A stretch of 64,000 nt of DNA from Odoribacter sp. OttesenSCG-928-L07 (GCA_030265965.1 JAJDHA010000001.1:65394-129393), one strand, 5' to 3'; numbered from the stretch's first letter, positions 2,317-55,708 are shown. Notes: a model not told the origin generated them from the letters alone. Made by a program: numbers and translations.

Positions 2317-2322
2317 TTCTAA

Positions 2323-2350
2323 GCCCCTAAATCCCCTAAAGGGGACTTTT
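2323..2350 (+). repeat. 28-nt hairpin element, copy 1 (GCCCCTAAATCCCCTAAAGGGGACTTTT)
   Basis: Starts 6 nt after the radA stop. TCCCC-TAAA-GGGGA hairpin followed by CTTTT. Near-identical copies at 35533, 60149(rc), 60508, 31784(rc) and 14681. Confidence 0.85.
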
Positions 2351-2380
2351 GGATACTACCAAATACAAAATAATTCTATG

Positions 2381-3758: not shown

Positions 3759-3792
3759 TGAAATAATTTAGAAATTGATGTGATAATGTGAT

Positions 3793-3825
3793 GATTTGAA
3801 GATTTGAAGATTTGAAGATTTGATT
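3793..3825. repeat. 8-mer tandem array (GATTTGAA)x4
   Basis: gatttgaa gatttgaa gatttgaa gatttgat read directly. Same unit at 14567-14598 and, as reverse complement, at 20225-20248. Confidence 0.9.
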
Positions 3826-3902
3826 GATTATCCCCATAGGGGATCCCGAACGGTAGCCCGAGAATTGCCAAAACGCCCCCGCACGCCGTAGGTGTGCGAC
3901 GA
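3826..3902 (+). repeat. 77-nt two-hairpin intergenic element, copy A
   Basis: GATTATCCCCATAGGGGATCCCGAACGGTAGCCCGAGAATTGCCAAAACGCCCCCGCACGCCGTAGGTGTGCGACGA. Hairpins are ATCCCC/GGGGAT and CGCACGCC/GGTGTGCG. Homologous copies at 14598(rc), 60249 and 60418(rc). Confidence 0.9.
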
Positions 3903-5097: not shown

Positions 5098-5889
5098 TTA
5101 TTTGAAAATAAAAGGAAATCCCGCCGAAACGCAAATTTCGATTCCTCTGTGGTATCTGGTAGTACCATTAAGATTATATCCATTAACATTTACAGGTATT
5201 GATTCTCCTTCAAGTTGCTTTTTTGAATATGTATTAGATAATCCGAAATAATATCCGCAATCAACTCTAATAAAGCAGGCGCTTTTGTTAATTTCATACC
5301 AAATAATACAACCTGCGCCGAATTTCATTCCATAATTGAAATAAGAGTAATTGCCATTAGTTAATAATACTTTTTGTTCGTTTAACGTTTCATTTCCGCT
5401 GAAGCAATTAAATTCAAATTCCGGTGCAACTAAAAGGTATGGATTAGCATATCTACTCAATGGCAGATTAAAATATACCGGCATATTTATATTTAAATTA
5501 TGTGCAGATAATTTATAAGGAGTTTCATTAATGTTGCTTGTAAGTCGGCTGCCTCCAGCTTTATATGTTACACCGGGAGCTAACGAAACCACACTTCCCA
5601 AATTTATTTCAACAAATAAGCCTGCAATTGTCAGTGGATGAACAACGGAAGTATAATCTTCATTAATTTGGGGATTACTATATTCCATATAAGCTAAATT
5701 AACACCGCCCTTTACACCGAAGTATGCTCTTCTTGCATTGATGTTAAATAATTTACTATTACCACGATTATAATAATTTGATCTATTATAATCAGATTTT
5801 AAATAGCTTCTTTGAGCAAAAGTTTCATTACTAATTAAAACAAAAATTAATAATGTTAAGATTATAAATATTTTATTTGTTTTCATCAT
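5098..5889 (-). CDS. Outer-membrane beta-barrel protein (porin-family / OMP_b-brl-like)
   Basis: Signal peptide MMKTNKIFIILTLLIFVLISNETFAQ, alternating aromatic beta-strand pattern, YFGVKGGVNLA motif, C-terminal aromatic residue. Start moved to the internal Met just after the upstream stop. Confidence 0.7.
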   Translation of the reverse strand: MMKTNKIFIILTLLIFVLISNETFAQRSYLKSDYNRSNYYNRGNSKLFNINARRAYFGVKGGVNLAYMEYSNPQINEDYTSVVHPLTIAGLFVEINLGSVVSLAPGVTYKAGGSRLTSNINETPYKLSAHNLNINMPVYFNLPLSRYANPYLLVAPEFEFNCFSGNETLNEQKVLLTNGNYSYFNYGMKFGAGCIIWYEINKSACFIRVDCGYYFGLSNTYSKKQLEGESIPVNVNGYNLNGTTRYHRGIEICVSAGFPFIFK

Positions 5890-6526: not shown

Positions 6527-9500
6527 TTAATGCTGAATAACAATACGTTCAGTTGTTGATTTTTTCTTGTTTCGAATCTGAATAAAGTACATTCCATGTT
6601 TATAGGAACTGATATTATGTTGAATAATTTCAACTTTTGAATTAAAGTTGGCATCAATTTCATCAATTAACTTTCCGGAAGTATCATAAATAGAAATATT
6701 AGTTTCGCCATCATAATTTTCAAATTTGATATTAATAATATCGTTTGCAGGATTAGGATAAATTGTGATATTCTCTCCATCAATATTATCTATAGATACA
6801 TGAGCATTCATTGTAATAGAAGTAATTGGAGAGCTGCCGCAATCATTAAAAGCCTGAACTGTAATAGTTCCGACATCTCTTGTTCTCACATATAAAGTAC
6901 ATACAGTTCCGTAATCATGAACAATATGCCATGGGGCATCATGTATTTCCCATTCATAATGAGTAGCCCCTTCTACAGGATCAATAGTATAAATAAATTC
7001 ACCGTTGAAAACATCGGATGAGAAAACACATTCTGTTTCTCCATGAATTTCTCCTATTTCCGTAATTTCTAATGCATTAATAACTTCTAAGTTAATTTCA
7101 TAAATACTATCGCAACGATTTGCTACTGTTTGGAGATGTGCAGTATATATTCCACTCTCTGTTAGTGATTGTCCATACCATAAATATGGCAGATCATTAG
7201 CACAAATGGTATCAAATGTTTCTATAAAATAAGATGGGAAGGTATATAATGTTAAATTAATAATACTATCACATCCGAATTGAGTTTTAAAAATTATCTC
7301 ATACAAACCTGGAGTCTCAATTATTGTGTCTCCATATGTGAGAGGTAATTCAGATTCACATAATCTTTTAACATCAGTGCCATAATAGCCTTGATTCATT
7401 TCTATCGTGATTGCATCAAAAAGATTTTGTCTGCAACCGTTAGCATCAAGCACATAAACTTCATAAGTTCCTGTGAAAAGATTAGTATATGTATAAGTTT
7501 CGTTATATGTTGGATCGCTATTAAACACTTGCCCTGAGTCCTTTTTCCAGCAGTAAATATACGGAGGTGTTCCACCCGATGCTTCTACAGTAATCTCTCC
7601 TCCGTTTCCACCTGAGCAACCATTGTTTACTTCAGCAAGATTAAGATATAGATTATTAGGTACTAATATATAAGTGTATGACCATTGGGAAGTATTACCT
7701 GCACAATCTTCATAAGTGAATGTGTATTTTCTTGTACCTTGACATGCTAAAGGATTAGGCTCATCTTCTTGTTCAATAGTTGGAGTAATAATATTATGGC
7801 AAGCATCATAAATTACAGGCAAAGGTGGAACAACAGCGTCAGCAATATTAGTAATTGTACTTTGCATATCTCCCGGCACAGATGGTCCAACTGATGGAGC
7901 TACATTATATGTATATGTCCATTCTGCGGTATGACCTGCAACATCAGTAAATTCATATCTATATACGCGAGTACCGATACATGTAATTGGGTTAGGTTCA
8001 TCAGTATATCCCAAATATTGAGGATTGTTTAGCAATATACCACATTGGTCATATACTGCAGGAAGTAGATGAGTTGGAGTAACAACATCAGACAAGCAAT
8101 TTACTGTTACATTTCCTGGCTCAGTACTAATGATTAATTCTTCAGGTCCGGTAATATTAAAAGTATAAGTCCATGGTGCAGAATTACCAGCGCAATCATA
8201 ATAAGTATAATGATATGTTGCAGTTCCGGCATAAACGAAAGGAGTAGGATTATAAACAACATTATTGTAAACTATATTAGTAATAGTATCTCCACAATAA
8301 TCAAAGACTACAGGAAGTAAATCATCAGGTTTATAAGCATCGGATTTACAAAGAACTGTTTCTTCTCCTGGCTCTGCTGTCATTTCAAATTGAGGCATTT
8401 CAATTATATACCTGTAACGCCAATCAGCTTCAAAGCCTGCACAATCAGTATAAGTATAAACGTATTCTACGTATCCATTACAATCAGATGCAGGTATTGT
8501 ATCTGTTAATTCGAATGTATTGCTTATATCATTGTCGCAATAGTCGTAAACAGGAGGCATAACACTTGGGGTAATTGTATGAGGAAGAACAGAAGCCAAA
8601 TCAAGGCATTCGATAATGGTATCTCTATAATTCTCTGTTATAATAAATTGTTGAGGAACGATATTATATTTATATTGCCATTCAGCTTCAAGTCCAACAC
8701 AATTAGCAAATGTATAAGTGTATGTAACAGATCCTTGACAATTTAATGTATCATAATCTACATTAATATTCTCGTATTCTTCGATAATGTTTCCGCAATA
8801 ATCAGTTACATTCGGCATCACACTTGGCTCTGTATTATGAGGTTCAATCAGAGCTGCAGATATACAACTTACAGTCTTTTCCATATCTTGATTAATAGTA
8901 AAAGGCTCTGCAGTTAAATAGTAGGTGAAAACCCAGTTTTCCTCAAATCCGTTGCAATTTATGTATGTGCATGTATATACTCGTGTACCTTCACAAGTGA
9001 TATCATGTGGAGTGTCAAGGGGTTCGGAGATAATAGGATTTGTTATAACATTACCGCAAGCATCTTCAACAACAGGAAGATATTGCCATGGCTCTACCAT
9101 TTCGCTCTTACAACTAACATTAGCAGAATTTTGTCCGCCGGTAAAAGTTAATGTATTAGGCATAACAATATTAAATACATGTTCCCAAACAGCTGTATTA
9201 CCGGCACAATCTCTATATGTATATTTATATGTTCTGCTTCCGTTGCATGCTAAAGGTTTAGGGTCATCAACAATTTCAAGTTTTATATCTGTAATATCAT
9301 TACCACAAGCATCTTGTTCTCCCGGTGGAGTGGGTGGGTCAATATCAGCTATACAGTCAACAGTACTTAAACCAAAAGTAGTATTGATAGTAAATGGCTC
9401 TCTTTCAACTTGAAATACGTAGTTCCAATCGGCAGTATGACCAGCGCAGTCAGTATATCTATATACGTAAGTACGTGTTCCGTTACATGTAAATCCGGGA

Positions 9501-12106
9501 GGATTGTTTATGATATTCTTCTGAAAAACATTTGTAATAGGATTACCACAAGCATCATTAATTTGAGGTATTTCAGCTATAGGATCATAAATTTCGCTTA
9601 TACAAGAAACTGTATTGTAATATGTTGGGTATATTTCTTCGTCAATTACAAGTTCAGGAACTTTTACTTGAAAGATATAGTCCCAATCGGCATAATTACC
9701 TGCGCAATCGAAATAACGGAAAGTGTATGTTACAGTTCCTTCACAAGTAAAGTTTGATTCAGGCGGATTATATGTAGTTGATAAAAGTTGAGGTGAATCA
9801 ATGGTAACTCCACAATTAACCATGATAGGTTCTAACTCATTAACCGGATTATATACACCATCTAAACAATCTACAGTAACAATAGTTGGCGGCTTTGTTA
9901 TTACAAGTTCGGGCATTATATGATATGTGAATGTCCATTCTGCTGTTTCGCCGTTACAATCGGTATAAAAATAAGTGTAGGTTTTTGTCCCGCTGCATGT
10001 TAATGTCCCAGGGATACTGCTAACGCTTGGTGCTGAAGGAGTAAGAATATTACCACAAGCATCTCGAATAGTAGGGATAGTGGTTGGAGGGTTAGCGGCA
10101 TCACTTACACATTTTACATAAGCAACTCCGGGTGCTGCTGTAATTACCAATGGAGGTATTTCCACATGAAATGTAAAATTCCAGACTGCAGTGTCTCCGG
10201 TGCAGTCATAAAATGTGTAATGATAAGTGCGATCTCCATTACAGGTTATTGGACCGGTTGGAGTATAGCCTGTACATATTATAGTAGTAATTTCATTTCC
10301 ACAACCATCGACTATTCCATTCGGTATAAATGAATCTGGCTGAAAAACATCACTTGGACAATTTACCGTTGTATCTCCATCTGCAAAAGTAGGTTGAAAT
10401 GACGGCATATCCTCTATTTTATAAGTATAAGTCCAATTCTTAGTATTTCCTGCGCAATCGGTGTAGGTATAAACATATTTACGTGTACCTTCACATGTTA
10501 ATGGAGAAGGACTATCAATTGTATCTGTTAGTTGGATATCAGTAATAATGTTTTCACAAAAGTCGGGGACATTATCAGGTGGAGTTGGTTCAACCATTTC
10601 ATAGATACAACCAACTAAAACCGGATCAGGATCGTCGGGCAAAGTAAATGTGGGGGGAACTACATTAAAAATGTAATTCCATGTAGCAGAGTTTCCCGAA
10701 CAATCATAGTATGTGTATTCATATCTTCGTGAGCCTGCACATGTAAGCAAGCCATCCGGTTCTTCAAAAATACCGGTAGGAACTGTAGGTTTTGTTACTT
10801 CACCTCCGCATGTATCATATACTGTAGGAAGCATATCAGATGTAGGCATTACTATATCATCAACACAGTTTACAGTAACTACCGTATCCGGTACATTGAT
10901 AACGAAAGTAGAAGCGGTTCCAATAATATATGTACATTCCCATACTTTATTATTACCCAAACAATCATCAAATCGGTAAGTGTATGTTCTGGTACTATTA
11001 CATGTTAATGGAGTCTGGCTGTCAACATAACCCAATAAGGTGTGGGGTATTCTTGATCCGCAAATAGTATCATAAATAACCGGAAGTATCGGTGGAACCG
11101 GCTCAGTAACCTCAGATGGGCAACCAACAGTAATATCAACATGATTTCCGTCAGGTAGCTCAAATCCAGGTGGATTAATATTGTAAGTATATCTCCATAT
11201 CTCTTCATGACCGGAGCAAGGATCGGTGTAAGAATATTCGAAAATACGAGTGCCGGCACATAAAAGTGGATTAGGGTTGTCTATAATAGAAAGTAGAACA
11301 GGTGGAATACTATCACCACAATCATTAGGAACAACAGTGAGTGGTGGTGGAACAGCTTGGGCTATACACTCAATATCTTTCGGATCCGGATCCGGATTAA
11401 TTGTAAAAGGAGGTCTCGTTAATATAATATTTTGTGAGATGGTTGTTGAATTACCGCAAGCATCTGTAATAGTATATATTCTTGTAATTTCTGATTGGCA
11501 TGCATTTTCAGGACGATCTATATGTGTAACAGTAAATAGGTCACTATCTATTGAACAATTATCGGTAATAGCCAAACCAAATGATGCAATCAAGGAAGCA
11601 ATATTATCTTCTGCGGGATAAATAGTTACAAGATCATCAGGGTGGCAGCCTTCAAGAAATTGAGCTGATAAAGTGCCGGTAATAGTAGGTGGTTCATTGT
11701 CTTCTACGATGAAAGTTGTTTGAGCGGCAGCTGTATCTCCATCGGCATCTATTATGGTAACCGAAATATTGTAGGTTCTATTACAAGTTTCAGGTGCAAT
11801 GGTTAATGTAGCTACCAAATCATTAGAGCTTTTTATTGCACCAATCCATTGTACGGAATAATCAGGAGTCGGTGTCCCAGTAATGTTAGCTGTAAAGGTA
11901 ACCATACCTCCGGCAATTGCATTAGAACAAATAGGACTTGTTTCGGAAGCAGTAATTGTAACTGTAAAATCAGCCCGCGAATCCGATTTTCCAAAAACAT
12001 TTTCTTTATCAGGATTGTTTAAAGAATTATTATTGGCAAAAGTGTTAGTGCATGTAATAAACATTAGCATTAACACAGAAAAAAATGATAACAAAAACTT
12101 TTTCAT
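6527..12106 (-). CDS. Giant T9SS-sorted cell-surface repeat protein (adhesin-like)
   Basis: 1859 aa with a signal peptide. About 16 tandem ~85-aa modules with 4 conserved Cys (..V.C....P...LP.V.D.CGN.I........P..C.GTR.Y.Y.YTDCAGN...W.YTF.V). SprB-type repeat GGEITVEASGGTPPYIYCW. Type-A Por C-terminal sorting domain ENITIYPNPANDIINIKF...IVIQH. Confidence 0.9.
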   Translation of the reverse strand: MKKFLLSFFSVLMLMFITCTNTFANNNSLNNPDKENVFGKSDSRADFTVTITASETSPICSNAIAGGMVTFTANITGTPTPDYSVQWIGAIKSSNDLVATLTIAPETCNRTYNISVTIIDADGDTAAAQTTFIVEDNEPPTITGTLSAQFLEGCHPDDLVTIYPAEDNIASLIASFGLAITDNCSIDSDLFTVTHIDRPENACQSEITRIYTITDACGNSTTISQNIILTRPPFTINPDPDPKDIECIAQAVPPPLTVVPNDCGDSIPPVLLSIIDNPNPLLCAGTRIFEYSYTDPCSGHEEIWRYTYNINPPGFELPDGNHVDITVGCPSEVTEPVPPILPVIYDTICGSRIPHTLLGYVDSQTPLTCNSTRTYTYRFDDCLGNNKVWECTYIIGTASTFVINVPDTVVTVNCVDDIVMPTSDMLPTVYDTCGGEVTKPTVPTGIFEEPDGLLTCAGSRRYEYTYYDCSGNSATWNYIFNVVPPTFTLPDDPDPVLVGCIYEMVEPTPPDNVPDFCENIITDIQLTDTIDSPSPLTCEGTRKYVYTYTDCAGNTKNWTYTYKIEDMPSFQPTFADGDTTVNCPSDVFQPDSFIPNGIVDGCGNEITTIICTGYTPTGPITCNGDRTYHYTFYDCTGDTAVWNFTFHVEIPPLVITAAPGVAYVKCVSDAANPPTTIPTIRDACGNILTPSAPSVSSIPGTLTCSGTKTYTYFYTDCNGETAEWTFTYHIMPELVITKPPTIVTVDCLDGVYNPVNELEPIMVNCGVTIDSPQLLSTTYNPPESNFTCEGTVTYTFRYFDCAGNYADWDYIFQVKVPELVIDEEIYPTYYNTVSCISEIYDPIAEIPQINDACGNPITNVFQKNIINNPPGFTCNGTRTYVYRYTDCAGHTADWNYVFQVEREPFTINTTFGLSTVDCIADIDPPTPPGEQDACGNDITDIKLEIVDDPKPLACNGSRTYKYTYRDCAGNTAVWEHVFNIVMPNTLTFTGGQNSANVSCKSEMVEPWQYLPVVEDACGNVITNPIISEPLDTPHDITCEGTRVYTCTYINCNGFEENWVFTYYLTAEPFTINQDMEKTVSCISAALIEPHNTEPSVMPNVTDYCGNIIEEYENINVDYDTLNCQGSVTYTYTFANCVGLEAEWQYKYNIVPQQFIITENYRDTIIECLDLASVLPHTITPSVMPPVYDYCDNDISNTFELTDTIPASDCNGYVEYVYTYTDCAGFEADWRYRYIIEMPQFEMTAEPGEETVLCKSDAYKPDDLLPVVFDYCGDTITNIVYNNVVYNPTPFVYAGTATYHYTYYDCAGNSAPWTYTFNITGPEELIISTEPGNVTVNCLSDVVTPTHLLPAVYDQCGILLNNPQYLGYTDEPNPITCIGTRVYRYEFTDVAGHTAEWTYTYNVAPSVGPSVPGDMQSTITNIADAVVPPLPVIYDACHNIITPTIEQEDEPNPLACQGTRKYTFTYEDCAGNTSQWSYTYILVPNNLYLNLAEVNNGCSGGNGGEITVEASGGTPPYIYCWKKDSGQVFNSDPTYNETYTYTNLFTGTYEVYVLDANGCRQNLFDAITIEMNQGYYGTDVKRLCESELPLTYGDTIIETPGLYEIIFKTQFGCDSIINLTLYTFPSYFIETFDTICANDLPYLWYGQSLTESGIYTAHLQTVANRCDSIYEINLEVINALEITEIGEIHGETECVFSSDVFNGEFIYTIDPVEGATHYEWEIHDAPWHIVHDYGTVCTLYVRTRDVGTITVQAFNDCGSSPITSITMNAHVSIDNIDGENITIYPNPANDIINIKFENYDGETNISIYDTSGKLIDEIDANFNSKVEIIQHNISSYKHGMYFIQIRNKKKSTTERIVIQH

Positions 12107-12526: not shown

Positions 12527-14566
12527 ATGAATAATTTTAAAAGATATACAGTAACAACTGCTTTGCCGTATGCAAACGGTCCTTTACACATTGGCCACCT
12601 TGCCGGAGTATATATTCCTGCTGATATTTATGTCAGATATTTGAGATCTATCGGCACGGATGTGGTATTTATCGGCGGCTCTGACGAACATGGAGTGCCT
12701 ATAACTATTAAAGCTAGAAAAGAAGGTGTTACCCCGCAGGATATAGTGGATAGATATCACAATATTATTAAGAAATCTTTCGCGGAATTTGGAATATCTT
12801 TTGACGTTTATTCGCGCACATCAAACGAAATACATAAAGAAACGGCATCGGAGTTTTTCCTCAAATTGTATAATGACGGAAAACTTATTGAAGATACGGA
12901 AGAACAATATTATGATGAGGAAGCTAAACAGTTTCTGGCGGATAGATACATTACAGGAACTTGTCCGATTTGCGGAAACCCAAAAGCTTACGGCGACCAA
13001 TGCGAAAGCTGCGGCACTTCTTTGAATGCTCGAGATTTGATTGAGCCTAAATCTACAATTAGCGGTAGCGCTCCTATTTTAAGAGAAACAAAACATTGGT
13101 ACTTGCCTTTGGATAGATATGAAGATTGGCTCAAAGAATGGATCTTAAACGAACATAAAGAATGGAAGGTTAATGTTTATGGTCAATGTAAGTCGTGGCT
13201 TGATGCCGGACTACATCCGCGTGCTGTTACCCGCGATCTTGATTGGGGAGTGAAAGTGCCTCTGAAAGATGCAAACGGTAAAGTACTTTATGTCTGGTTT
13301 GATGCACCGATCGGTTATATTTCTGCTACAAAAGAATTGACTAATGATTGGGAAAAATATTGGAAAGATAAAGATACACGATTAATACACTTCATTGGTA
13401 AAGATAATATTGTATTTCACTGCATTATTTTCCCAACAATGTTGAAAGCAGAAGGCTCTTATATTCTTCCCGACAACGTTCCTGCCTTTGAGTTTTTAAA
13501 TTTAGAAGGTGACAAAATATCTACATCCAGAAATTGGGCAGTATGGTTACACGAATATCTTGTAGATTTTCCGGATAAACAAGATGTGCTGAGATATGTT
13601 CTTACAGCAAATGCACCCGAAACAAAGGATAATGACTTCACTTGGAAAGATTTCCAAACAAAAAATAACAGCGAACTTGTCGCTATTTTCGGAAATTTTA
13701 TTAATAGAACTTTAGTGCTGACACAAAAATATTTCGATGGCTTTGTTCCTCCAAGAAATAAATTTGAAGAAATTGATATTTCTACTTTGGAAGAGCTGAA
13801 ATGTATTCCTACAAGAATTGAAAATAGTCTTGATAATTTCAAATTCAGAGAATCTTTGAGCGAGATGATGAGTCTTGCTCGACTTGGTAATAAATATCTT
13901 ACAGAAACAGAACCGTGGAAAACTTTCAAAGACAATCCTGAACGTGTGCAAACGGTTTTGAATATTGCTCTTCAAATATGCGCAAATCTTGCTGTTGTTT
14001 CAGCGCCATTTTTGCCTTTCACATCTGAAAAAATATTCAGAATGTTGAACTTGCCGAGTATGAAATGGTTTAAAGCCGGTAATACCGACCTTCTTGAGCC
14101 TGAACATAAACTCGGAGAACCTGTTCTACTTTTCGAAAAAATTGAAGATAAAGATATTGAATATCAAATCAACAGATTGGAACAAATAAAAACCGCTAAT
14201 GATAAAGAAAGCGAAGAAATCAAAGTGTCTCCACAAAAAGAAACAATTTGTTTTGATGATTTCGTGAAAATAGATATTAGAACCGGAAAAATACTTGAAG
14301 CTGAAAAAGTTCCAAAAGCTAACAAACTGCTCAAACTAAAAATAGATACCGGTATTGATATCCGTACTGTAGTCTCAGGAATCGCCGAATTTTACAATCC
14401 GGAAGAAATAATCGGACAAAATGTTAGTATTCTCGTGAATCTTGCCCCAAGAAATCTACGCGGAATAGAATCCGAAGGAATGATTTTAATGGCAGAAAAC
14501 AGCGAAGGAAAACTTTGTTTTGTCTCCCCAATAGAAGATTTCAATCCCGGCAGCGAAATCAAATAA
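12527..14566 (+). CDS. metG: Methionine--tRNA ligase
   Basis: HIGH-type PLHIGHL, Zn knuckles CPICG/CESCG, KMSKS-type KISTSRN, C-terminal Trbp111/EMAP-like tRNA-binding domain. Confidence 0.95.
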
Positions 14567-14598
14567 TTTGAAGATTTGAAGATTTGAAGATTTGATGA
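14567..14598. repeat. 8-mer tandem array (TTTGAAGA)x4 starting at the first nt after the metG stop
   Basis: tttgaaga tttgaaga tttgaaga tttgatga. Confidence 0.9.
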
Positions 14599-14668
14599 AA
14601 CCTACGGCGTGCGGGGGGGTGTTGGCAATTATCGGGCTACCGTTCGGAATCCCCTATGGGGATAATCA
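14598..14668 (-). repeat. 77-nt two-hairpin element, copy B (reverse orientation, outer arm of the GC hairpin truncated)
   Basis: The reverse complement reads GATTATCCCCATAGGGGATTCCGAACGGTAGCCCGATAATTGCCAACACCCCCCCGCACGCCGTAGGTTT. Confidence 0.85.
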
Positions 14669-14680
14669 TCTCATCATTTT

Positions 14681-14705
14681 GCCCCTAAATCTAAAGGGGG
14701 CTTTT
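14681..14705 (+). repeat. 28-nt hairpin element, degenerate copy
   Basis: gcccctaaatctaaagggggctttt. Confidence 0.6.
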
Positions 14706-28164: not shown

Positions 28165-28227
28165 GTGACGGGTGACGGGTGACGAGTGATGGGTGACGAG
28201 TGACGGGTGACGGGTGACGAGTGACGG
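28165..28227 (-). repeat. Heptamer array 1: (GTCACNC)x9 on the minus strand
   Basis: The + strand reads gtgacgg gtgacgg gtgacga gtgatgg gtgacga gtgacgg gtgacgg gtgacga gtgacgg. Lies 14 nt downstream of the tRNA-methyltransferase stop. Confidence 0.95.
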
Positions 28228-33798: not shown

Positions 33799-35589
33799 CT
33801 ATTCGAAATAATAAGTTTTATCTTTTATTTTCTTTTTCAGAATATCTGAAGCCTCATCTGGATTAGATTCGTAAGCTTTTTCCCAATATTCGAGCGCTTT
33901 GGTTGCTTCATTAAGTTTCCATTTTGTGTCTCCGAGATGTTCAAGGATTACGGTTCTGTCGTCGCCATCGTACTTTAATGCCTCTTCCAAATATCTCTCA
34001 GCTTCTTTATAATTTCCTCTCATAAACAATGCCCAAGCGTAAGTGTCTAAATAATAAGAACTTTTCGAATTTAGCTCCACCGCTTTCTTTCCCATTTCCA
34101 CCGCTTTATCCAAACTCATATTTGAAGTACTTAAATAATAGCTGTAATTATTAAGTAAATATGCGTTATCATAATTTAGTGCCAGCGATTTGTCATAATT
34201 ATCGAATGCCTCAGTTTTATTATTGAGCTGATAATAACAGTCGCCCAACATCATATAAAAATCAGCTTTAAGCAGGTCGTTATCCACAATCATAATTGAG
34301 CCTGTTTTCAGAGTTGAGATAGCTCCTTCATAATCCTTTTCAATATATTTTGCTAAGCCGTTGTAATAATAAAACTCCGGAATTAACGGGTACAATTCAA
34401 TTGCTTTATTCGATAAACTTATTATTGAGTCGTAGTTGTTGATTGTTGATTCAATGTAAATTAGGTTCAAATAAACAGAAGGATTACTCAATCCTAATTC
34501 GCGAGTTTTGTAAAAACCTTGTTTTGCCATTCCAATCTGATTATTCTGCAGATAGAAATCACTGAGCATCGCAAGCGACACAGGGTCTTCGGGGTGAGTA
34601 TCGCTAATTGTTAATAATAGTTCAAATGCTTCGCGATTATTGGTGGTATAAATTTCTTCGTAAGAGTAATATTTGAGAAATATTGAGATTTTAGTTTTTG
34701 CATCTAATTCAGGAGATGCGAATCCTAACATTAATTCTTCATAAGCCCTTGTATCGTTTTTAGATTTTCTGTAATATTCTGAAAGAGTGATATGAACGTA
34801 TGGATTGTTTGGTTCCATTTCAGCAATCTTATTATAACATTCTAAAGCTTCTTTTTCTTTTCCGTAATTCAAATATAGTTCAGCAAGCATTGAAATGTAT
34901 TTTGTATTGTTTGGATAAGCATCACAAAGTCGTTTCATTTCCGCTATAGCTTTATTTTTTTTATTTTGAAGATCATAAATTCTAGCAATCTTCATACTTA
35001 TCTCCTCGTTAATGCCCATAACTTCTTCCAATTTTGCCAACTGTTTTAAAGTCTCATCATAATTAGTTGTAAGAAGTAAAGCATTTGTATAATTAAATAC
35101 TGCTTCGATATTTGTTGGGTCTAATTCAATAATTTTTTTGTGCAGAGCGAGTTCTTCCTTATTTGCCGGTGTTGTGCTAATTAAGCTAACAAGGTTCATT
35201 AAATAGAAAACATTCTTATTATTGAGTTCAACAGCTTTTCTTGCAGCTTCAACAGCGCCTTCAGTATTGTATTTTAAAAGATATAATTGCGAAAGTTCGT
35301 AATATGCTGCGTCATTATTCTGGTCAAGTTTTATTGCCTGTTCAAATAATTTAATGGCATTATCAGTATCCCCAGTTATCTTTGCTGCAACAGCATCAAT
35401 AAAAACAGAAGTTTTTTTAATTTCTTCCGCCGTCATTGGTGTAGAATTAAGGTCGACTGGAATTTTTACTTGTGCTAATAATGAGTTACAAGTGAAAAGT
35501 ATTGCAAATAAAAGAGTTGTTAAGATTCTTATGCCCCTAAATCCCCTAAAGGGGACTTTTTGATATTTTATTATTGTAAAATTTGTCAT
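33799..35589 (-). CDS. Tetratricopeptide-repeat protein
   Basis: Multiple TPR units (A..YYELSQLYL..., A...Y.KA.E..P.N). The N-terminal signal-like segment is preceded by residues encoded by a 28-nt repeat element. Confidence 0.8.
   Translation of the reverse strand: MTNFTIIKYQKVPFRGFRGIRILTTLLFAILFTCNSLLAQVKIPVDLNSTPMTAEEIKKTSVFIDAVAAKITGDTDNAIKLFEQAIKLDQNNDAAYYELSQLYLLKYNTEGAVEAARKAVELNNKNVFYLMNLVSLISTTPANKEELALHKKIIELDPTNIEAVFNYTNALLLTTNYDETLKQLAKLEEVMGINEEISMKIARIYDLQNKKNKAIAEMKRLCDAYPNNTKYISMLAELYLNYGKEKEALECYNKIAEMEPNNPYVHITLSEYYRKSKNDTRAYEELMLGFASPELDAKTKISIFLKYYSYEEIYTTNNREAFELLLTISDTHPEDPVSLAMLSDFYLQNNQIGMAKQGFYKTRELGLSNPSVYLNLIYIESTINNYDSIISLSNKAIELYPLIPEFYYYNGLAKYIEKDYEGAISTLKTGSIMIVDNDLLKADFYMMLGDCYYQLNNKTEAFDNYDKSLALNYDNAYLLNNYSYYLSTSNMSLDKAVEMGKKAVELNSKSSYYLDTYAWALFMRGNYKEAERYLEEALKYDGDDRTVILEHLGDTKWKLNEATKALEYWEKAYESNPDEASDILKKKIKDKTYYFE
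35533..35560 (+). repeat. 28-nt hairpin element copy inside the annotated 5' end of the TPR gene
   Basis: gcccctaaatcccctaaaggggactttt, identical to copy 1. Confidence 0.85.
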
Positions 35590-36176: not shown

Positions 36177-36193
36177 TGATTTGATTTTTTTGA

Positions 36194-36256
36194 GTGACGA
36201 GTGACGAGTGACGAGTGACAAGTGACGAGTGACAAGTGACGAGTGACAAGTGACGA
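36194..36256 (-). repeat. Heptamer array 2: (GTCACTY)x9 on the minus strand
   Basis: The + strand reads gtgacga x3, gtgacaa, gtgacga, gtgacaa, gtgacga, gtgacaa, gtgacga. Ends 17 nt from the dut ATG. Confidence 0.95.
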
Positions 36257-36277
36257 ATAATCATTGTGAGTATTCAT

Positions 36278-36412
36278 TTTATCGACTTTATCGGCTTTAT
36301 CGGCTTTATCAGTTTTATCCATTTTATCGGCTTTATCGGCTTTATCGGCTTTATCAGTTTTATCCATTTTATCGATTTTATCGGCTTTATCCATTTTATC
36401 CACTTCATCCGA
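36278..36412 (-). repeat. 9-mer array 1: (NNNGATAAA)x15 on the minus strand
   Basis: The + strand reads tttatcgac, tttatcggc x2, tttatcagt, tttatccat, tttatcggc x3, tttatcagt, tttatccat, and so on. Shows a higher-order 36-45-nt period. Overlaps the flippase stop codon. Confidence 0.95.
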
Positions 36413-41948: not shown

Positions 41949-42029
41949 ATGGATAAAGTCGATAAAACGGATAAAATGGATAAAGTCGATAAAATGGATA
42001 AAACGGATAAAGTCGATAAAATAGATATT
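41949..42029 (+). repeat. 9-mer array 2: (NNNGATAAA)x9
   Basis: atggataaa gtcgataaa acggataaa atggataaa gtcgataaa atggataaa acggataaa gtcgataaa atagatatt. 27-nt super-period. Starts 5 nt after the alaS stop. Confidence 0.95.
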
Positions 42030-42042
42030 ACAATGTTTACTC

Positions 42043-42119
42043 GTCACCCGTCACCCGTCACTCGTCACCCGTCACCCGTCACTTGTCACCCGTCACCCGT
42101 CACCCGTCACTCATCACCC
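42043..42119 (+). repeat. Heptamer array 3: (GTCACYC)x11
   Basis: gtcaccc x2, gtcactc, gtcaccc x2, gtcactt, gtcaccc x3, gtcactc, atcaccc. 21-nt super-period. Confidence 0.95.
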
Positions 42120-55624: not shown

Positions 55625-55708
55625 GTCACACGTCACCCGTCACACGTCACACGTCACGCGTCACACGTCACCCGTCACGCGTCACACGTCACCCGTCACC
55701 CGTCACCC
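55625..55708 (+). repeat. Heptamer array 4: (GTCACNC)x12
   Basis: gtcacac gtcaccc gtcacac gtcacac gtcacgc gtcacac gtcaccc gtcacgc gtcacac gtcaccc x3. Starts 8 nt after the fabD stop. Overlaps the ribF stop and last codons on the other strand. Confidence 0.95.

What the first reader, a model, noticed from the sequence alone, without database searches (positions are those of the whole stretch)
3826..3902. A ~77-nt two-hairpin intergenic element family with a compensatory stem change
There are four copies in 64 kb: 3826-3902 (+), 14598-14668 (-, truncated), 60249-60326 (+) and 60418-60494 (-). The consensus is TGATTATCCCC-RTA-GGGGATCCCGAACGGTAGCCCGAGAATTG-N-C-rich-CGCACRCC-GTA-GGTGTGCGACGA. Both hairpins have 3-nt loops. 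In copy D the second stem reads CACACACC/GGTGTGTG, against CGCACACC/GGTGTGCG in copy C. This is a paired G:C to A:T change that preserves pairing. Copy A has a G:T wobble at another position. The segment between the hairpins carries indels, so the element is not coding even though several track ORFs translate it as ...ACGGVLAI(L/I)GLPFGIPYGDN. It occurs in both orientations relative to flanking genes and is always intergenic. It behaves like a REP/BIME-type or MITE-like structured repeat. I cannot place it in a known family.
Basis: seen in the sequence. Interest (0 to 1): 0.65.

Follow-up and report, generated by a model that had tools for sequence, protein, structure and literature searches.

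The report
Double-hairpin REP-like repeat in a Bacteroidales genome
The four copies are real. They are a lineage-specific family of a small two-hairpin DNA repeat which, in other Bacteroidota, sits beside a 153-aa IS200-like single-strand DNA transposase gene, so they are most likely that enzyme's recognition sites spread through intergenic DNA, not an RNA gene.

Summary
The window holds four copies of a ~77-nt, ~60% GC element in a 34% GC genome. All are intergenic, they lie in both orientations, and each has two hairpins with 3-nt loops. Copy B lacks the 3' arm of hairpin 2.

A covariance model built from the four copies found full-length relatives in two other Bacteroidota genomes. Those are the only two of about 120 sampled loci that also carry a 153-aa Y1 HUH transposase gene or a fragment of one. 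The protein has the DHxH / WQ / Y---Q--HH motifs of 'TnpA-Y1 subclass 1.2'.

Five of five independent loci of that gene carry the same kind of element close by:
- two hairpins with a CC-RTA-GG apex on one strand;
- 47-56 nt from apex to apex;
- an invariant TAG 9 nt after hairpin 1.

Both stems covary across seven genomes. Copies C and D form an inverted doublet like the one that flanks the gene elsewhere, but with no gene between them. The closest syntenic relative lacks the whole complex.

Best reading: a REP/REPIN-like substrate of a Y1 transposase, embedded in a BIME-like mosaic.

Not shown: a transposase gene in this genome, the genome-wide copy number, or any activity.

The parts
3826..3902 (+). 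Copy A, full length. Hairpin 1 ATCCCC-ATA-GGGGAT, linker with GGTAG, C-rich spacer, hairpin 2 CGCACGCC-GTA-GGTGTGCG with a G.T wobble.
   Evidence: (107 bits)
14598..14668 (-). Copy B, decayed. Hairpin 1 and the linker are intact. The 3' arm of hairpin 2 is replaced by the 8-mer array.
   Evidence: 92 bits, 14592-14667
60249..60326 (+). Copy C. The linker motif is GTGG in place of GTAG. It has a 1-nt deletion and a 2-nt insertion in the linker and spacer.
   Evidence: 96 bits
60418..60494 (-). Copy D, tail-to-tail with C. Hairpin 2 is CACACACC/GGTGTGTG, a compensatory change relative to C.
   Evidence: (103 bits)
60327..60417 (.). 91-nt AT-rich spacer between C and D. It occupies the position that the Y1 transposase gene occupies in L078 and L135.
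60188..60195 (+). Orphan 5' end of the element (TGATTATC), joined to P' exactly as in B and D. It is separated from copy C by a unique 52-nt stretch (60196-60247) that is bounded by the same octamer at 60248-60255.
   Evidence: (I19)
60147..60175 (-). P module (reverse complement of GCCCCTAAATCCCCTAAAGGGGACTTTGG). Outer left arm of the 60147-60540 palindromic complex.
   Evidence: (I19)
60505..60540 (+). P module, 13 nt from the 5' end of copy D. Outer right arm of the complex.
   Evidence: (D13)
14681..14705 (+). P-module variant (GCCCCTAAATCTAAAGGGGGCTTTT), 12 nt from the 5' end of copy B.
   Evidence: D11
3789..3823 (+). Tandem 8-mer array (GATTTGAA x 4.4) abutting the 5' end of copy A.
   Evidence: (D9)
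14566..14595 (+). Identical 8-mer array abutting the truncated 3' end of copy B.
   Evidence: (D9)

Best explanation
E is a REP/REPIN-like DNA repeat. It is a lineage-specific family within a Bacteroidota-wide class of double-hairpin elements that accompany a 153-aa IS200-like Y1 (HUH) single-strand DNA transposase.

Proposed mechanism:
1. On single-stranded DNA, for example the lagging-strand template, the two imperfect hairpins form. Each shows the same CC-RTA-GG apex on the same strand.
2. The Y1 enzyme binds them.
3. It cuts and rejoins near them. The invariant TAG (GT[AG]G in this genome) 9 nt after hairpin 1 is the candidate cleavage or guide motif.
4. This copies or moves the element into intergenic DNA, often next to other hairpin repeats such as P.

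In that reading, C and D are a gene-less version of the inverted pair that brackets the transposase gene elsewhere. A is a singlet and B is a decaying singlet.

Shown here:
- the repeat family and its two hairpins;
- stem covariation across genomes;
- co-occurrence with the Y1 gene in other genomes;
- absence of the element from the syntenic site of a relative.

Inferred:
- that this genome has, or once had, the enzyme;
- that the enzyme mobilises E;
- the role of the TAG motif.

Any effect on neighbouring transcripts would be secondary.
For: 1. Family and structure. Four copies, 14 base pairs, none elsewhere in the window.

2. Relatives. R1 finds full-length relatives at L104 5759-5839(-) and 5670-5748(+) (29.7 and 20.3 bits), and at L078 5605-5680(-) (25.8 bits, E 3e-4 in 435 kb).

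3. L078 architecture. Two inverted elements, with hairpin 2 nearest the gene, bracket ORF 5144-5602. That ORF matches Pfam Y1_Tnp at E 4e-23 and NCBIfam transpos_IS200 at 70 bits against a cutoff of 55. At least five elements lie within 1.4 kb.

4. L104. It carries a C-terminal fragment of the same protein type (YFKNQQEHH; hmmsearch E 5e-4).

5. Co-occurrence. L078 and L104 are the only loci among about 120 sampled that have R1 hits, and also the only two with this protein type.

6. Generality. Five of five independent tnpA loci (L078, L135, L141, L142, L146) have double-hairpin elements within ~300 nt.

7. Shared architecture in 18 elements from 7 genomes. CC-RTA-GG apexes on one strand, 47-56 nt apart (the span in the 14 elements that measured), and a near-invariant TAG (A28 present in 17 of 18) in fixed register.

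8. Covariation. 96.8% of cells are paired against 79.3% in shuffles (0 of 500 shuffles as high). 8 of 12 pairs change on both sides. Slid controls give 33-50%.

9. Asymmetry. Position 3 of hairpin 2 is imperfect on the same strand in several genomes: G.T in A and in both MS502-39 (L104) elements, T.T in Mucilaginibacter. B has the 5' arm G, but its 3' arm is lost. From established knowledge of IS608 TnpA and E. coli RAYT, such imperfect hairpins are what these enzymes read.

10. Gain or loss. The relative with 85% identical FabF and the same OYE-SDR-acpP-fabF-rnc order has a 215-nt AT-rich spacer with no E and no P, against 556 nt here.

11. C-D folds into a REPIN-like long hairpin.
Against: - No Y1_Tnp gene lies in the window or in the ~16 kb of extra DNA obtained from the same species.
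- The rest of this genome could not be reached, so neither the enzyme's presence nor the genome-wide copy number is known.
- The reciprocal test is weak. Model R2, built only from transposase-flanking elements, ranks the four E loci top in the window, but at E about 0.1-0.3 and through hairpin 1 alone.
- R1 scores the L135 and L141 elements only 8-11 bits.
- The canonical REP feature, GT[AG]G at the 5' foot of the hairpin, is not present in that position.
- The covariation alignment was assembled partly by looking for hairpins, and the 4-nt loops were trimmed to 3 nt to keep register. That favours pairing.
- Palindromic DNA covaries in the same way whether it acts as DNA or as RNA.
- Quentin et al. 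2018 (PMC6006769) report this protein subclass as generally lacking terminal hairpins or REPs.
Confidence: 0.62

Rival explanations
1. E is primarily an RNA element: a small RNA, or a 3'-UTR stabiliser or attenuator. In this reading the two hairpins with identical C(GUA)G triloops bind an RNA-binding protein or block exonucleases.
For: - The hairpins fold with RNA parameters.
- The G.T position would be a legitimate G.U pair in RNA.
- All three loci lie next to at least one gene's 3' end.
- From general knowledge, REPs in E. coli do stabilise upstream mRNA.
Against: - Orientation relative to the flanking genes is not consistent. A is antisense to both neighbours, and C and D oppose each other.
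- There is no U-tract, and no terminator or promoter call sits at the elements.
- There is no Rfam match above threshold.
- Z-scores for single copies are only about -2.
- The element is absent from the conserved syntenic site upstream of acpP in the nearest relative, while the proximal ~95 nt of that region is conserved.
- Relatives in other genomes bracket a transposase gene.
Confidence: 0.15
2. E, or the C-D pair, is a MITE: a deletion derivative of a DDE-type insertion sequence, moved in trans by cut-and-paste.
For: - Small size, several copies, intergenic position.
- C and D together form a ~250-bp unit with long inverted ends.
Against: - The two ends of a single E are not inverted repeats of each other.
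- No direct duplication flanks A, B or the C-D pair.
- There is no match to plasmid or phage records that would reveal a parent IS.
- The related elements in other genomes flank a Y1 (HUH) gene, not a DDE gene.
Confidence: 0.05
3. E is a local, non-mobile duplication product. The intergenic mosaics (P, E and the 8-mer arrays) arose by slippage, template switching and recombination between nearby palindromes. There is no dedicated enzyme and no genome-wide family.
For: - All the known copies lie within 57 kb, and none is in the 16 kb of flanking DNA.
- Identical 30-nt 8-mer arrays abut A and B on opposite ends of the element.
- The whole region 60100-60580 is one large imperfect palindrome.
- The core pattern has no hit in 185,579 species genomes or in the metagenome collection, apart from one chance hit.
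Against: - The copies lie at three unlinked intergenic sites with unrelated flanks.
- Copies differ by 6-13% over the ungapped stretches compared, and mean column identity is 89% in the four-copy alignment, with the stems maintained.
- The same architecture recurs in distant genomes next to a transposase.
- The zero database hits are uninformative if this genome is masked or missing from those collections.
Confidence: 0.12

Closest known systems
REP / REPIN / BIME elements with their RAYT (TnpA-REP) transposase: the 'REPtron' of E. coli, Pseudomonas and Stenotrophomonas
   Same: - Short GC-rich imperfect palindromes in intergenic DNA, in both orientations.
- They occur as singlets and as inverted doublets that fold into one long hairpin.
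- They are mixed with other motifs in mosaics.
- Families are lineage-specific, with stems that differ between genomes.
- In related genomes the elements bracket a Y1 HUH gene in inverted orientation.
- A GT[AG]G motif is present (GGTAG; GTGG in copy C).
   Different: - The unit is two different hairpins about 50 nt apart on one strand, not a single palindrome.
- GT[AG]G is not at the 5' foot. It lies in the loops and 8 nt beyond hairpin 1.
- The associated enzyme scores as IS200-type (NCBIfam transpos_IS200 70 bits; REP_Tyr_transpos 28 bits against a cutoff of 80).
- Its nearest solved structures are ISDra2 TnpA, not E. coli RAYT.
IS200/IS605 ends and their non-autonomous derivatives (PATEs)
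   Same: - Subterminal imperfect hairpins read on one strand by a ~150-aa Y1 transposase.
- No terminal inverted repeats within the unit and no target duplication.
- Gene-less derivatives exist.
   Different: - In IS200/IS605 the left and right hairpins lie on the same strand at the two ends of the gene. Here each flank carries a two-hairpin unit and the two flanks are inverted.
- The enzyme family is highly conserved. The top 120 homologues are 73-79% identical to the query.
- In the loci seen, the gene is single-copy and sits beside housekeeping genes, unlike an active IS.
TnpA-Y1 subclass 1.2 of Quentin et al. 2018 (PMC6006769)
   Same: The 153-aa proteins next to the E-like elements carry that subclass's signature: DH[IV]H, WQ, Y---Q--HH, ~148 aa, in Bacteroidetes and Cyanobacteria.
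   Different: [quoted passage not shown]
- Its Table S1 contains no CCGTAGG or CCATAGG hairpins.
- Here five of five loci have them.
'Atypical secondary structures' flanking TnpA-Y1 subclass 2.6 (Bacteroidetes) and class 3
   Same: Non-canonical hairpins without a 5' GT[AG]G foot. They flank a Y1 gene and recur elsewhere in the genome.
   Different: Those enzymes have other motifs: NH[LIV]H with YIH[QN]NP for subclass 2.6, and a CnGA foot for class 3. No sequence comparison with their hairpins was possible beyond the absence of this element's motifs from their table.

Membership tests
REP/REPIN-RAYT (REPtron) | Short imperfect palindromes, intergenic, many copies per genome | tested here: inconclusive
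   The elements are palindromic and intergenic, with 4 copies in 64 kb. The genome-wide number could not be obtained. Only ~80 kb of this species was reachable, and the collection scans were blind to it.
REP/REPIN-RAYT (REPtron) | GT[AG]G tetranucleotide 0-2 nt 5' of the hairpin foot | tested here: not met
   The 5' feet read TGATT|ATCCCC and CCCC|CGCAC. GT[AG]G occurs only inside the apexes (C-GTAG-G) and 8 nt 3' of hairpin 1 (GGTAG or GGTGG).
REP/REPIN-RAYT (REPtron) | Inverted doublets (REPINs) that can fold as one hairpin | tested here: met
   C(+) and D(-) are tail-to-tail and fold at -91.7 kcal/mol, z = -16. The same arrangement is seen in L104.
REP/REPIN-RAYT (REPtron) | A cognate class-2 RAYT gene in the same genome, flanked by the repeats | not testable with these tools
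   None lies in the window or its flanks. In other genomes the flanked gene is class-1-like, with REP_Tyr_transpos at 28 bits against a cutoff of 80.
IS200/IS605 end or PATE | Imperfect hairpins on one strand recognised by a TnpA-IS200-type Y1 enzyme | tested here: inconclusive
   Both hairpins present the same apex on one strand, with a strand-specific G.T or T.T imperfection. Relatives adjoin a transpos_IS200-scoring gene. Binding was not tested.
IS200/IS605 end or PATE | Left and right ends in direct orientation around the gene, and insertion 3' of a fixed 4-5 nt target | tested here: not met
   The flanking units are inverted in L078 and L135. The left flanks of A to D differ (GATTTGAT, ATGAGA, TATGCG, ATGCGT) and no common target was found.
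MITE of a DDE transposon | Terminal inverted repeats plus a target-site duplication | tested here: not met
   The ends of a single E are not inverted repeats, and no duplications flank A, B or the C-D pair.
Any described RNA family (Rfam 15) | Score at or above the family's gathering threshold | tested here: not met
   The window holds only tRNA-Arg. The permissive scan of 60050-60600 gave only sub-threshold microRNA-precursor look-alikes, caused by the long inverted repeat.

The most novel reading that the evidence does not exclude
The double-hairpin CC-RTA-GG elements are the missing cognate DNA substrates of TnpA-Y1 subclass 1.2. That protein is a highly conserved 153-aa IS200-like HUH enzyme of Bacteroidota, and the literature describes it as having no associated hairpins or REPs. 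Together they would form a new REPtron-type system built on a class-1 (IS200-like) enzyme. Its unit is two hairpins plus a fixed TAG or GT[AG]G motif, and the window's E is one of its dispersing, lineage-specific families.
Probability: 0.4. Interest if true: 0.65.

Novelty: new variant of a known kind. Interest (0 to 1): 0.5.

Why it matters
REP-type repeats and their domesticated Y1 transposases are well described in Proteobacteria and poorly described in Bacteroidota.

If the link proposed here holds, an 'orphan' and very widespread enzyme subclass gains a defined DNA partner. More than 5,000 homologues were found at E <= 1e-10. The partner has a simple, testable grammar: two apex-identical hairpins about 50 nt apart, followed by a fixed TAG. 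That would let the enzyme's specificity be assayed directly. It would also explain GC-rich islands in AT-rich Bacteroidota intergenic DNA, and the assembly breaks and spurious ORFs they cause in MAGs.

For this window alone the practical message is ordinary. The element is a repeat, not a gene, and it should be masked or annotated as such.

Tried and rejected
1. Exact-pattern scans for the E core (TCCCCNNNGGGGATNCCGAACGGT).
- Genome collection: 0 hits.
- Viral contigs: 0 hits.
- Metagenome contigs: 1 hit, a chance match inside a high-GC protease gene.
- These zeros cannot be read as absence, because not even the window's own copies were found.

2. Searching 5.8 billion called proteins with the spurious translations of E, to pick up further copies. 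Nothing was found.

3. Extending the genome. Exact-protein look-ups gave only 9 kb to the left (L129) and 6.7 kb to the right (L131) from sister MAGs GCA_030266115.1 and GCA_030266045.1. These hold no further E.

4. Short-read contigs that end inside E or at P (L132, L004, L005, L130). I first read these as evidence for many copies. I rejected that reading for E, because the inverted C/D pair alone would break a de Bruijn graph.

5. Reciprocal model R2, built from transposase-flanking elements only. The four E loci rank top in the window but are not significant (E 0.1-0.3), and they match only through hairpin 1.

6. Plasmid and phage collections: no similarity.

7. Finding this species' own Y1 gene. 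This was not possible, because the homologue list shows only the best 120 of 5,373 and carries no genome labels.

8. Literature. No paper was found that describes these hairpins or the P motif.

Full report
**1. What is in the window**

The four reported copies are present as described. A 29-nt core matches three of them at up to 3 mismatches, against none in 100 shuffles. The fourth copy, C, differs from that core by a 1-nt deletion.

A covariance model built from the four copies (R1) recovers exactly these four at 92-107 bits when every position of the window is scored, and nothing else.

The window is 32-37% GC, while the element is 55-61% GC.

Each full copy has two hairpins with 3-nt loops, under either DNA or RNA parameters:
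- hairpin 1 is ATCCCC-RTA-GGGGAT;
- hairpin 2 is CRCACRCC-GTA-GGTGTGYG.

Copy B has lost the 3' arm of hairpin 2.

The paired G:C to A:T difference between C and D, and the G.T wobble in A, are both real.

All copies are intergenic:
- A lies downstream of an LD-carboxypeptidase gene and upstream of an MFS transporter gene.
- B lies between the convergent metG and a SAM hydroxide adenosyltransferase gene.
- C and D lie between an SDR gene and acpP-fabF.

Indels in the C-rich spacer shift the reading frame. No called protein among 5.8 billion resembles the element's translations.

**2.

- C(+) and D(-) are tail-to-tail around a 91-nt AT-rich spacer. As single-stranded DNA they fold into one long hairpin (-91.7 kcal/mol, z = -16).
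- A second repeat, here called P (GCCCCTAAATCCCCTAAAGGGGACTTT), sits 12-13 nt from the 5' end of B and of D. It also sits the same distance from an orphan 5' fragment of the element at 60188-60195.
- As a result, 60147-60540 is a nested palindromic complex: P' / fragment / C / spacer / D / P.
- Identical 8-mer arrays (GATTTGAA) abut A at its 5' end and B at its truncated 3' end.

This is the mosaic style of BIMEs.

**3. Source and relatives**

Identical DNA occurs in three sister MAGs: GCA_030266045.1, GCA_030266115.1 and GCA_030265935.1. The closest other FabF proteins are labelled Bacteroidales.

The nearest relative found has FabF 85% identical, on a 492-kb JGI contig (L127). It keeps the order OYE-SDR-acpP-fabF-rnc-asd-ribF. 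Its SDR-acpP spacer is 215 nt and AT-rich, against 556 nt here. Only the ~95 nt next to acpP align. It has no E, no P and no tandem arrays.

The GC-rich complex is therefore a gain in this lineage or a loss in the other. It is not a conserved regulatory region.

**4. Finding relatives of the element**

Exact-pattern scans for the E core were empty. They did not find the window's own copies either, so the zeros say nothing about abundance.

It returned 120 stretches of DNA carrying the exact 22-mer, mostly from Bacteroidota of several orders. That gave about 0.9 Mb of unrelated Bacteroidota DNA to search.

R1 found full-length matches in just two of those loci:
- L104 (Bacteroidia bacterium MS502-39): two elements, 29.7 and 20.3 bits, again a tail-to-tail pair next to a P-like module.
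- L078 (a Cytophagales MAG): 25.8 bits, E 3e-4.

**5. The link to a transposase**

In L078 the matched element and an inverted partner bracket an ORF at 5144-5602, with hairpin 2 nearest the gene. At least five such elements lie within 1.4 kb.

The ORF is a Y1 HUH transposase:
- Pfam Y1_Tnp, E 4e-23;
- NCBIfam transpos_IS200, 70 bits against a cutoff of 55;
- NCBIfam REP_Tyr_transpos, 28 bits against a cutoff of 80;
- the nearest solved structures are ISDra2 TnpA.

Its motifs (DHVH, WQ, YILNQEKHH) fit 'subclass 1.2' of Quentin et al. 2018 (PMC6006769). The family consensus keeps them.

L104 carries a C-terminal fragment of the same protein type (YFKNQQEHH).

So the only two of ~120 loci with R1 hits are also the only two with this protein type. 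If both traits were placed at random, that would happen about once in 7,000 trials.

I then fetched four more loci through homologues of the protein. In all of them, double-hairpin elements lie within ~300 nt of the gene:
- L135: one on each side, inverted.
- L141 (Mucilaginibacter sp. ZT4R22) and L146: two downstream.
- L142: two upstream.

**6. Shared grammar and covariation**

Eighteen elements from seven genomes share three features:
- Both hairpins have a CC-RTA-GG apex on the same strand. Occasional variant loops are GTTA, GTCA and GGA.
- The apexes are 47-56 nt apart in the 14 elements with both hairpins that measured.
- A TAG, with T and G invariant and A present in 17 of 18, lies 9 nt after the 3' foot of hairpin 1. 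In this window and in MS502-39 it reads GGTAG. Copy C has GGTGG. This is the GT[AG]G motif of classical REPs, but in a different position.

The stems differ between genomes yet still pair:
- 96.8% of cells form standard pairs, against 79.3% in shuffles (0 of 500 as high).
- 8 of 12 pairs change on both sides.
- Sliding the partner by 1-3 columns drops pairing to 33-50%.

Position 3 of hairpin 2 is imperfect on the same strand in several genomes: G.T here and in MS502-39, T.T in Mucilaginibacter. From established knowledge, strand-specific imperfection of this kind is what IS608 TnpA and E. coli RAYT read.

Caveats:
- Some of the elements were located by looking for hairpins.
- I trimmed 4-nt loops to 3 nt to keep register.
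- Palindromes covary in the same way whether they act as DNA or as RNA.

**7. Weak points**

- The reciprocal model R2, built only from transposase-flanking elements, ranks the four E loci top in the window. However, the E-values are only 0.1-0.3 and the matches go through hairpin 1 alone.
- R1 scores the L135 and L141 elements only 8-11 bits. The window family is linked to the class through L078, through the intermediate MS502-39 family, and through architecture. It is not linked by strong sequence similarity to every member.
- No Y1 gene lies in the window or in the 16 kb of extra DNA from this species. I could not reach the rest of the genome.

**8. Interpretation**

The best reading is a REP/REPIN-like substrate of an IS200-like Y1 transposase, scattered through intergenic DNA (confidence about 0.6). 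The C-D pair is a gene-less copy of the gene-bracketing arrangement. A and B are singlets, and B is decaying.

Rival readings and their approximate weights:
- An RNA-level role as the primary function, about 0.15. Against it are the inconsistent orientation, the absence from the syntenic site and the lack of any Rfam match.
- Purely local duplication, about 0.12.
- A DDE-type MITE, about 0.05. There are no terminal inverted repeats, no target duplications and no parent IS.

**9. Novelty**

REP-like repeats tied to Y1 enzymes are a known kind. This one differs in three ways:
- the unit is two hairpins plus a displaced GT[AG]G or TAG motif;
- the partner enzyme is class-1 and IS200-like;
- Quentin et al. 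list that subclass as having no REPs, and their Table S1 holds none of these hairpins.

I found no paper describing these elements. I rate it a new variant of a known kind, of moderate interest.

Noticed in passing
window 2320-2355(+), 35530-35565(+), 60147-60175(-), 60505-60540(+), variant at 14681-14705; loci L006-L125: The P module CCCCTAAATCCCC(T/G)AAAGGGGA is conserved as an exact 22-mer in at least 120 stretches of DNA. Most come from Bacteroidota of several orders (Cytophagales, Bacteroidales, Chitinophagales, Sphingobacteriales, Flavobacteriales), and a few come from MAGs labelled Pseudomonadota or Thiotrichaceae. P often occurs as inverted pairs 30-100 nt apart, and next to similar 'hairpin plus repeated 3' arm' motifs such as CTCCCTCCCCTTTAGGGGAGGGTTGGGGAGGGG. 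Its stem (TCCCC/GGGGA) is the same as hairpin 1 of E. I found no description of it in the literature. Such exact conservation of a short intergenic motif across orders is unexplained.
   Followed up: partly
window 28165-28227, 36192-36256, 42039-42119, 55625-55706: There are four intergenic arrays of a 7-nt unit (GTGACGG and its variants, 9-12 copies each), in both orientations. In a 34% GC genome these are conspicuous GC-rich microsatellite-like arrays, reminiscent of cyanobacterial STRR repeats.
   Followed up: no
window 36271-36410 and 41949-42027: Two 9-nt arrays (GATAAAATG type, about 9-15 copies) each sit next to a heptamer array. They form 80-84% inverted repeats of about 90 nt that bracket a 5.5-kb segment. 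That segment holds a polysaccharide-export-type gene, a MerR regulator gene, an M23 peptidase gene and alaS. It could be an invertible or recombination-prone segment. This was not examined.
   Followed up: no
window 60196-60247: A unique 52-nt stretch with its own small hairpin (GGGGCTTCAACAAGCTCAGCCCC) is bounded on both sides by the octamer TGATTATC (60188-60195 and 60248-60255). It looks like an insertion, with duplication, into the 5' end of an E copy. There is no second copy in the window.
   Followed up: partly
L104 200-830: In Bacteroidia bacterium MS502-39 the Y1 transposase fragment lies inside a ~630-bp near-perfect palindrome. The palindrome also contains hairpins with CC-GTAA-GG and CTCC...GGAG apexes. 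Large palindromes around these elements, as at window 60100-60580, may be a by-product of the enzyme or of hairpin-induced template switching.
   Followed up: no
L142 806-846 and 1668-1706: In one metagenomic locus, the whole unit of double-hairpin elements plus tnpA (~860 bp) is bounded by a ~40-nt direct repeat (tgctattgagcttcgttgtgtcactcacttgta). IS200/IS605 elements do not make target duplications, so this is unexpected.
   Followed up: no
L113 2050-3100 and L100 2600-3600: Two other Y1_Tnp-like genes in the sampled loci are flanked by a different set of small hairpins, with TTTCAG or CTGAAAG loops (for example TGCCTTTCAGGCA, CACCTTTCAGGTG). In L113 the hairpins appear in the same order on both sides of the gene. 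This is probably another Bacteroidota Y1/hairpin pairing.
   Followed up: no
window 62783-63681 versus L131 3767-4668: A ~900-bp segment at the right end of the window is 86.5% identical to a segment about 3 kb further on in the same contig. It lies within a block of four genes (including one with faint RHS-repeat hits) that is absent between the steroid-dehydrogenase-like and OYE genes of the nearest relative. It is likely an inserted polymorphic-toxin-type cassette with a duplicated module.
   Followed up: no
window 6527-12106(-): A 1,859-aa ORF contains about 250- and 500-nt periodic internal repeats with conserved Cys-containing motifs (families D4, D6-D8, D12). It is probably a large repetitive surface or adhesin-type protein. 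It was not annotated here.
   Followed up: no
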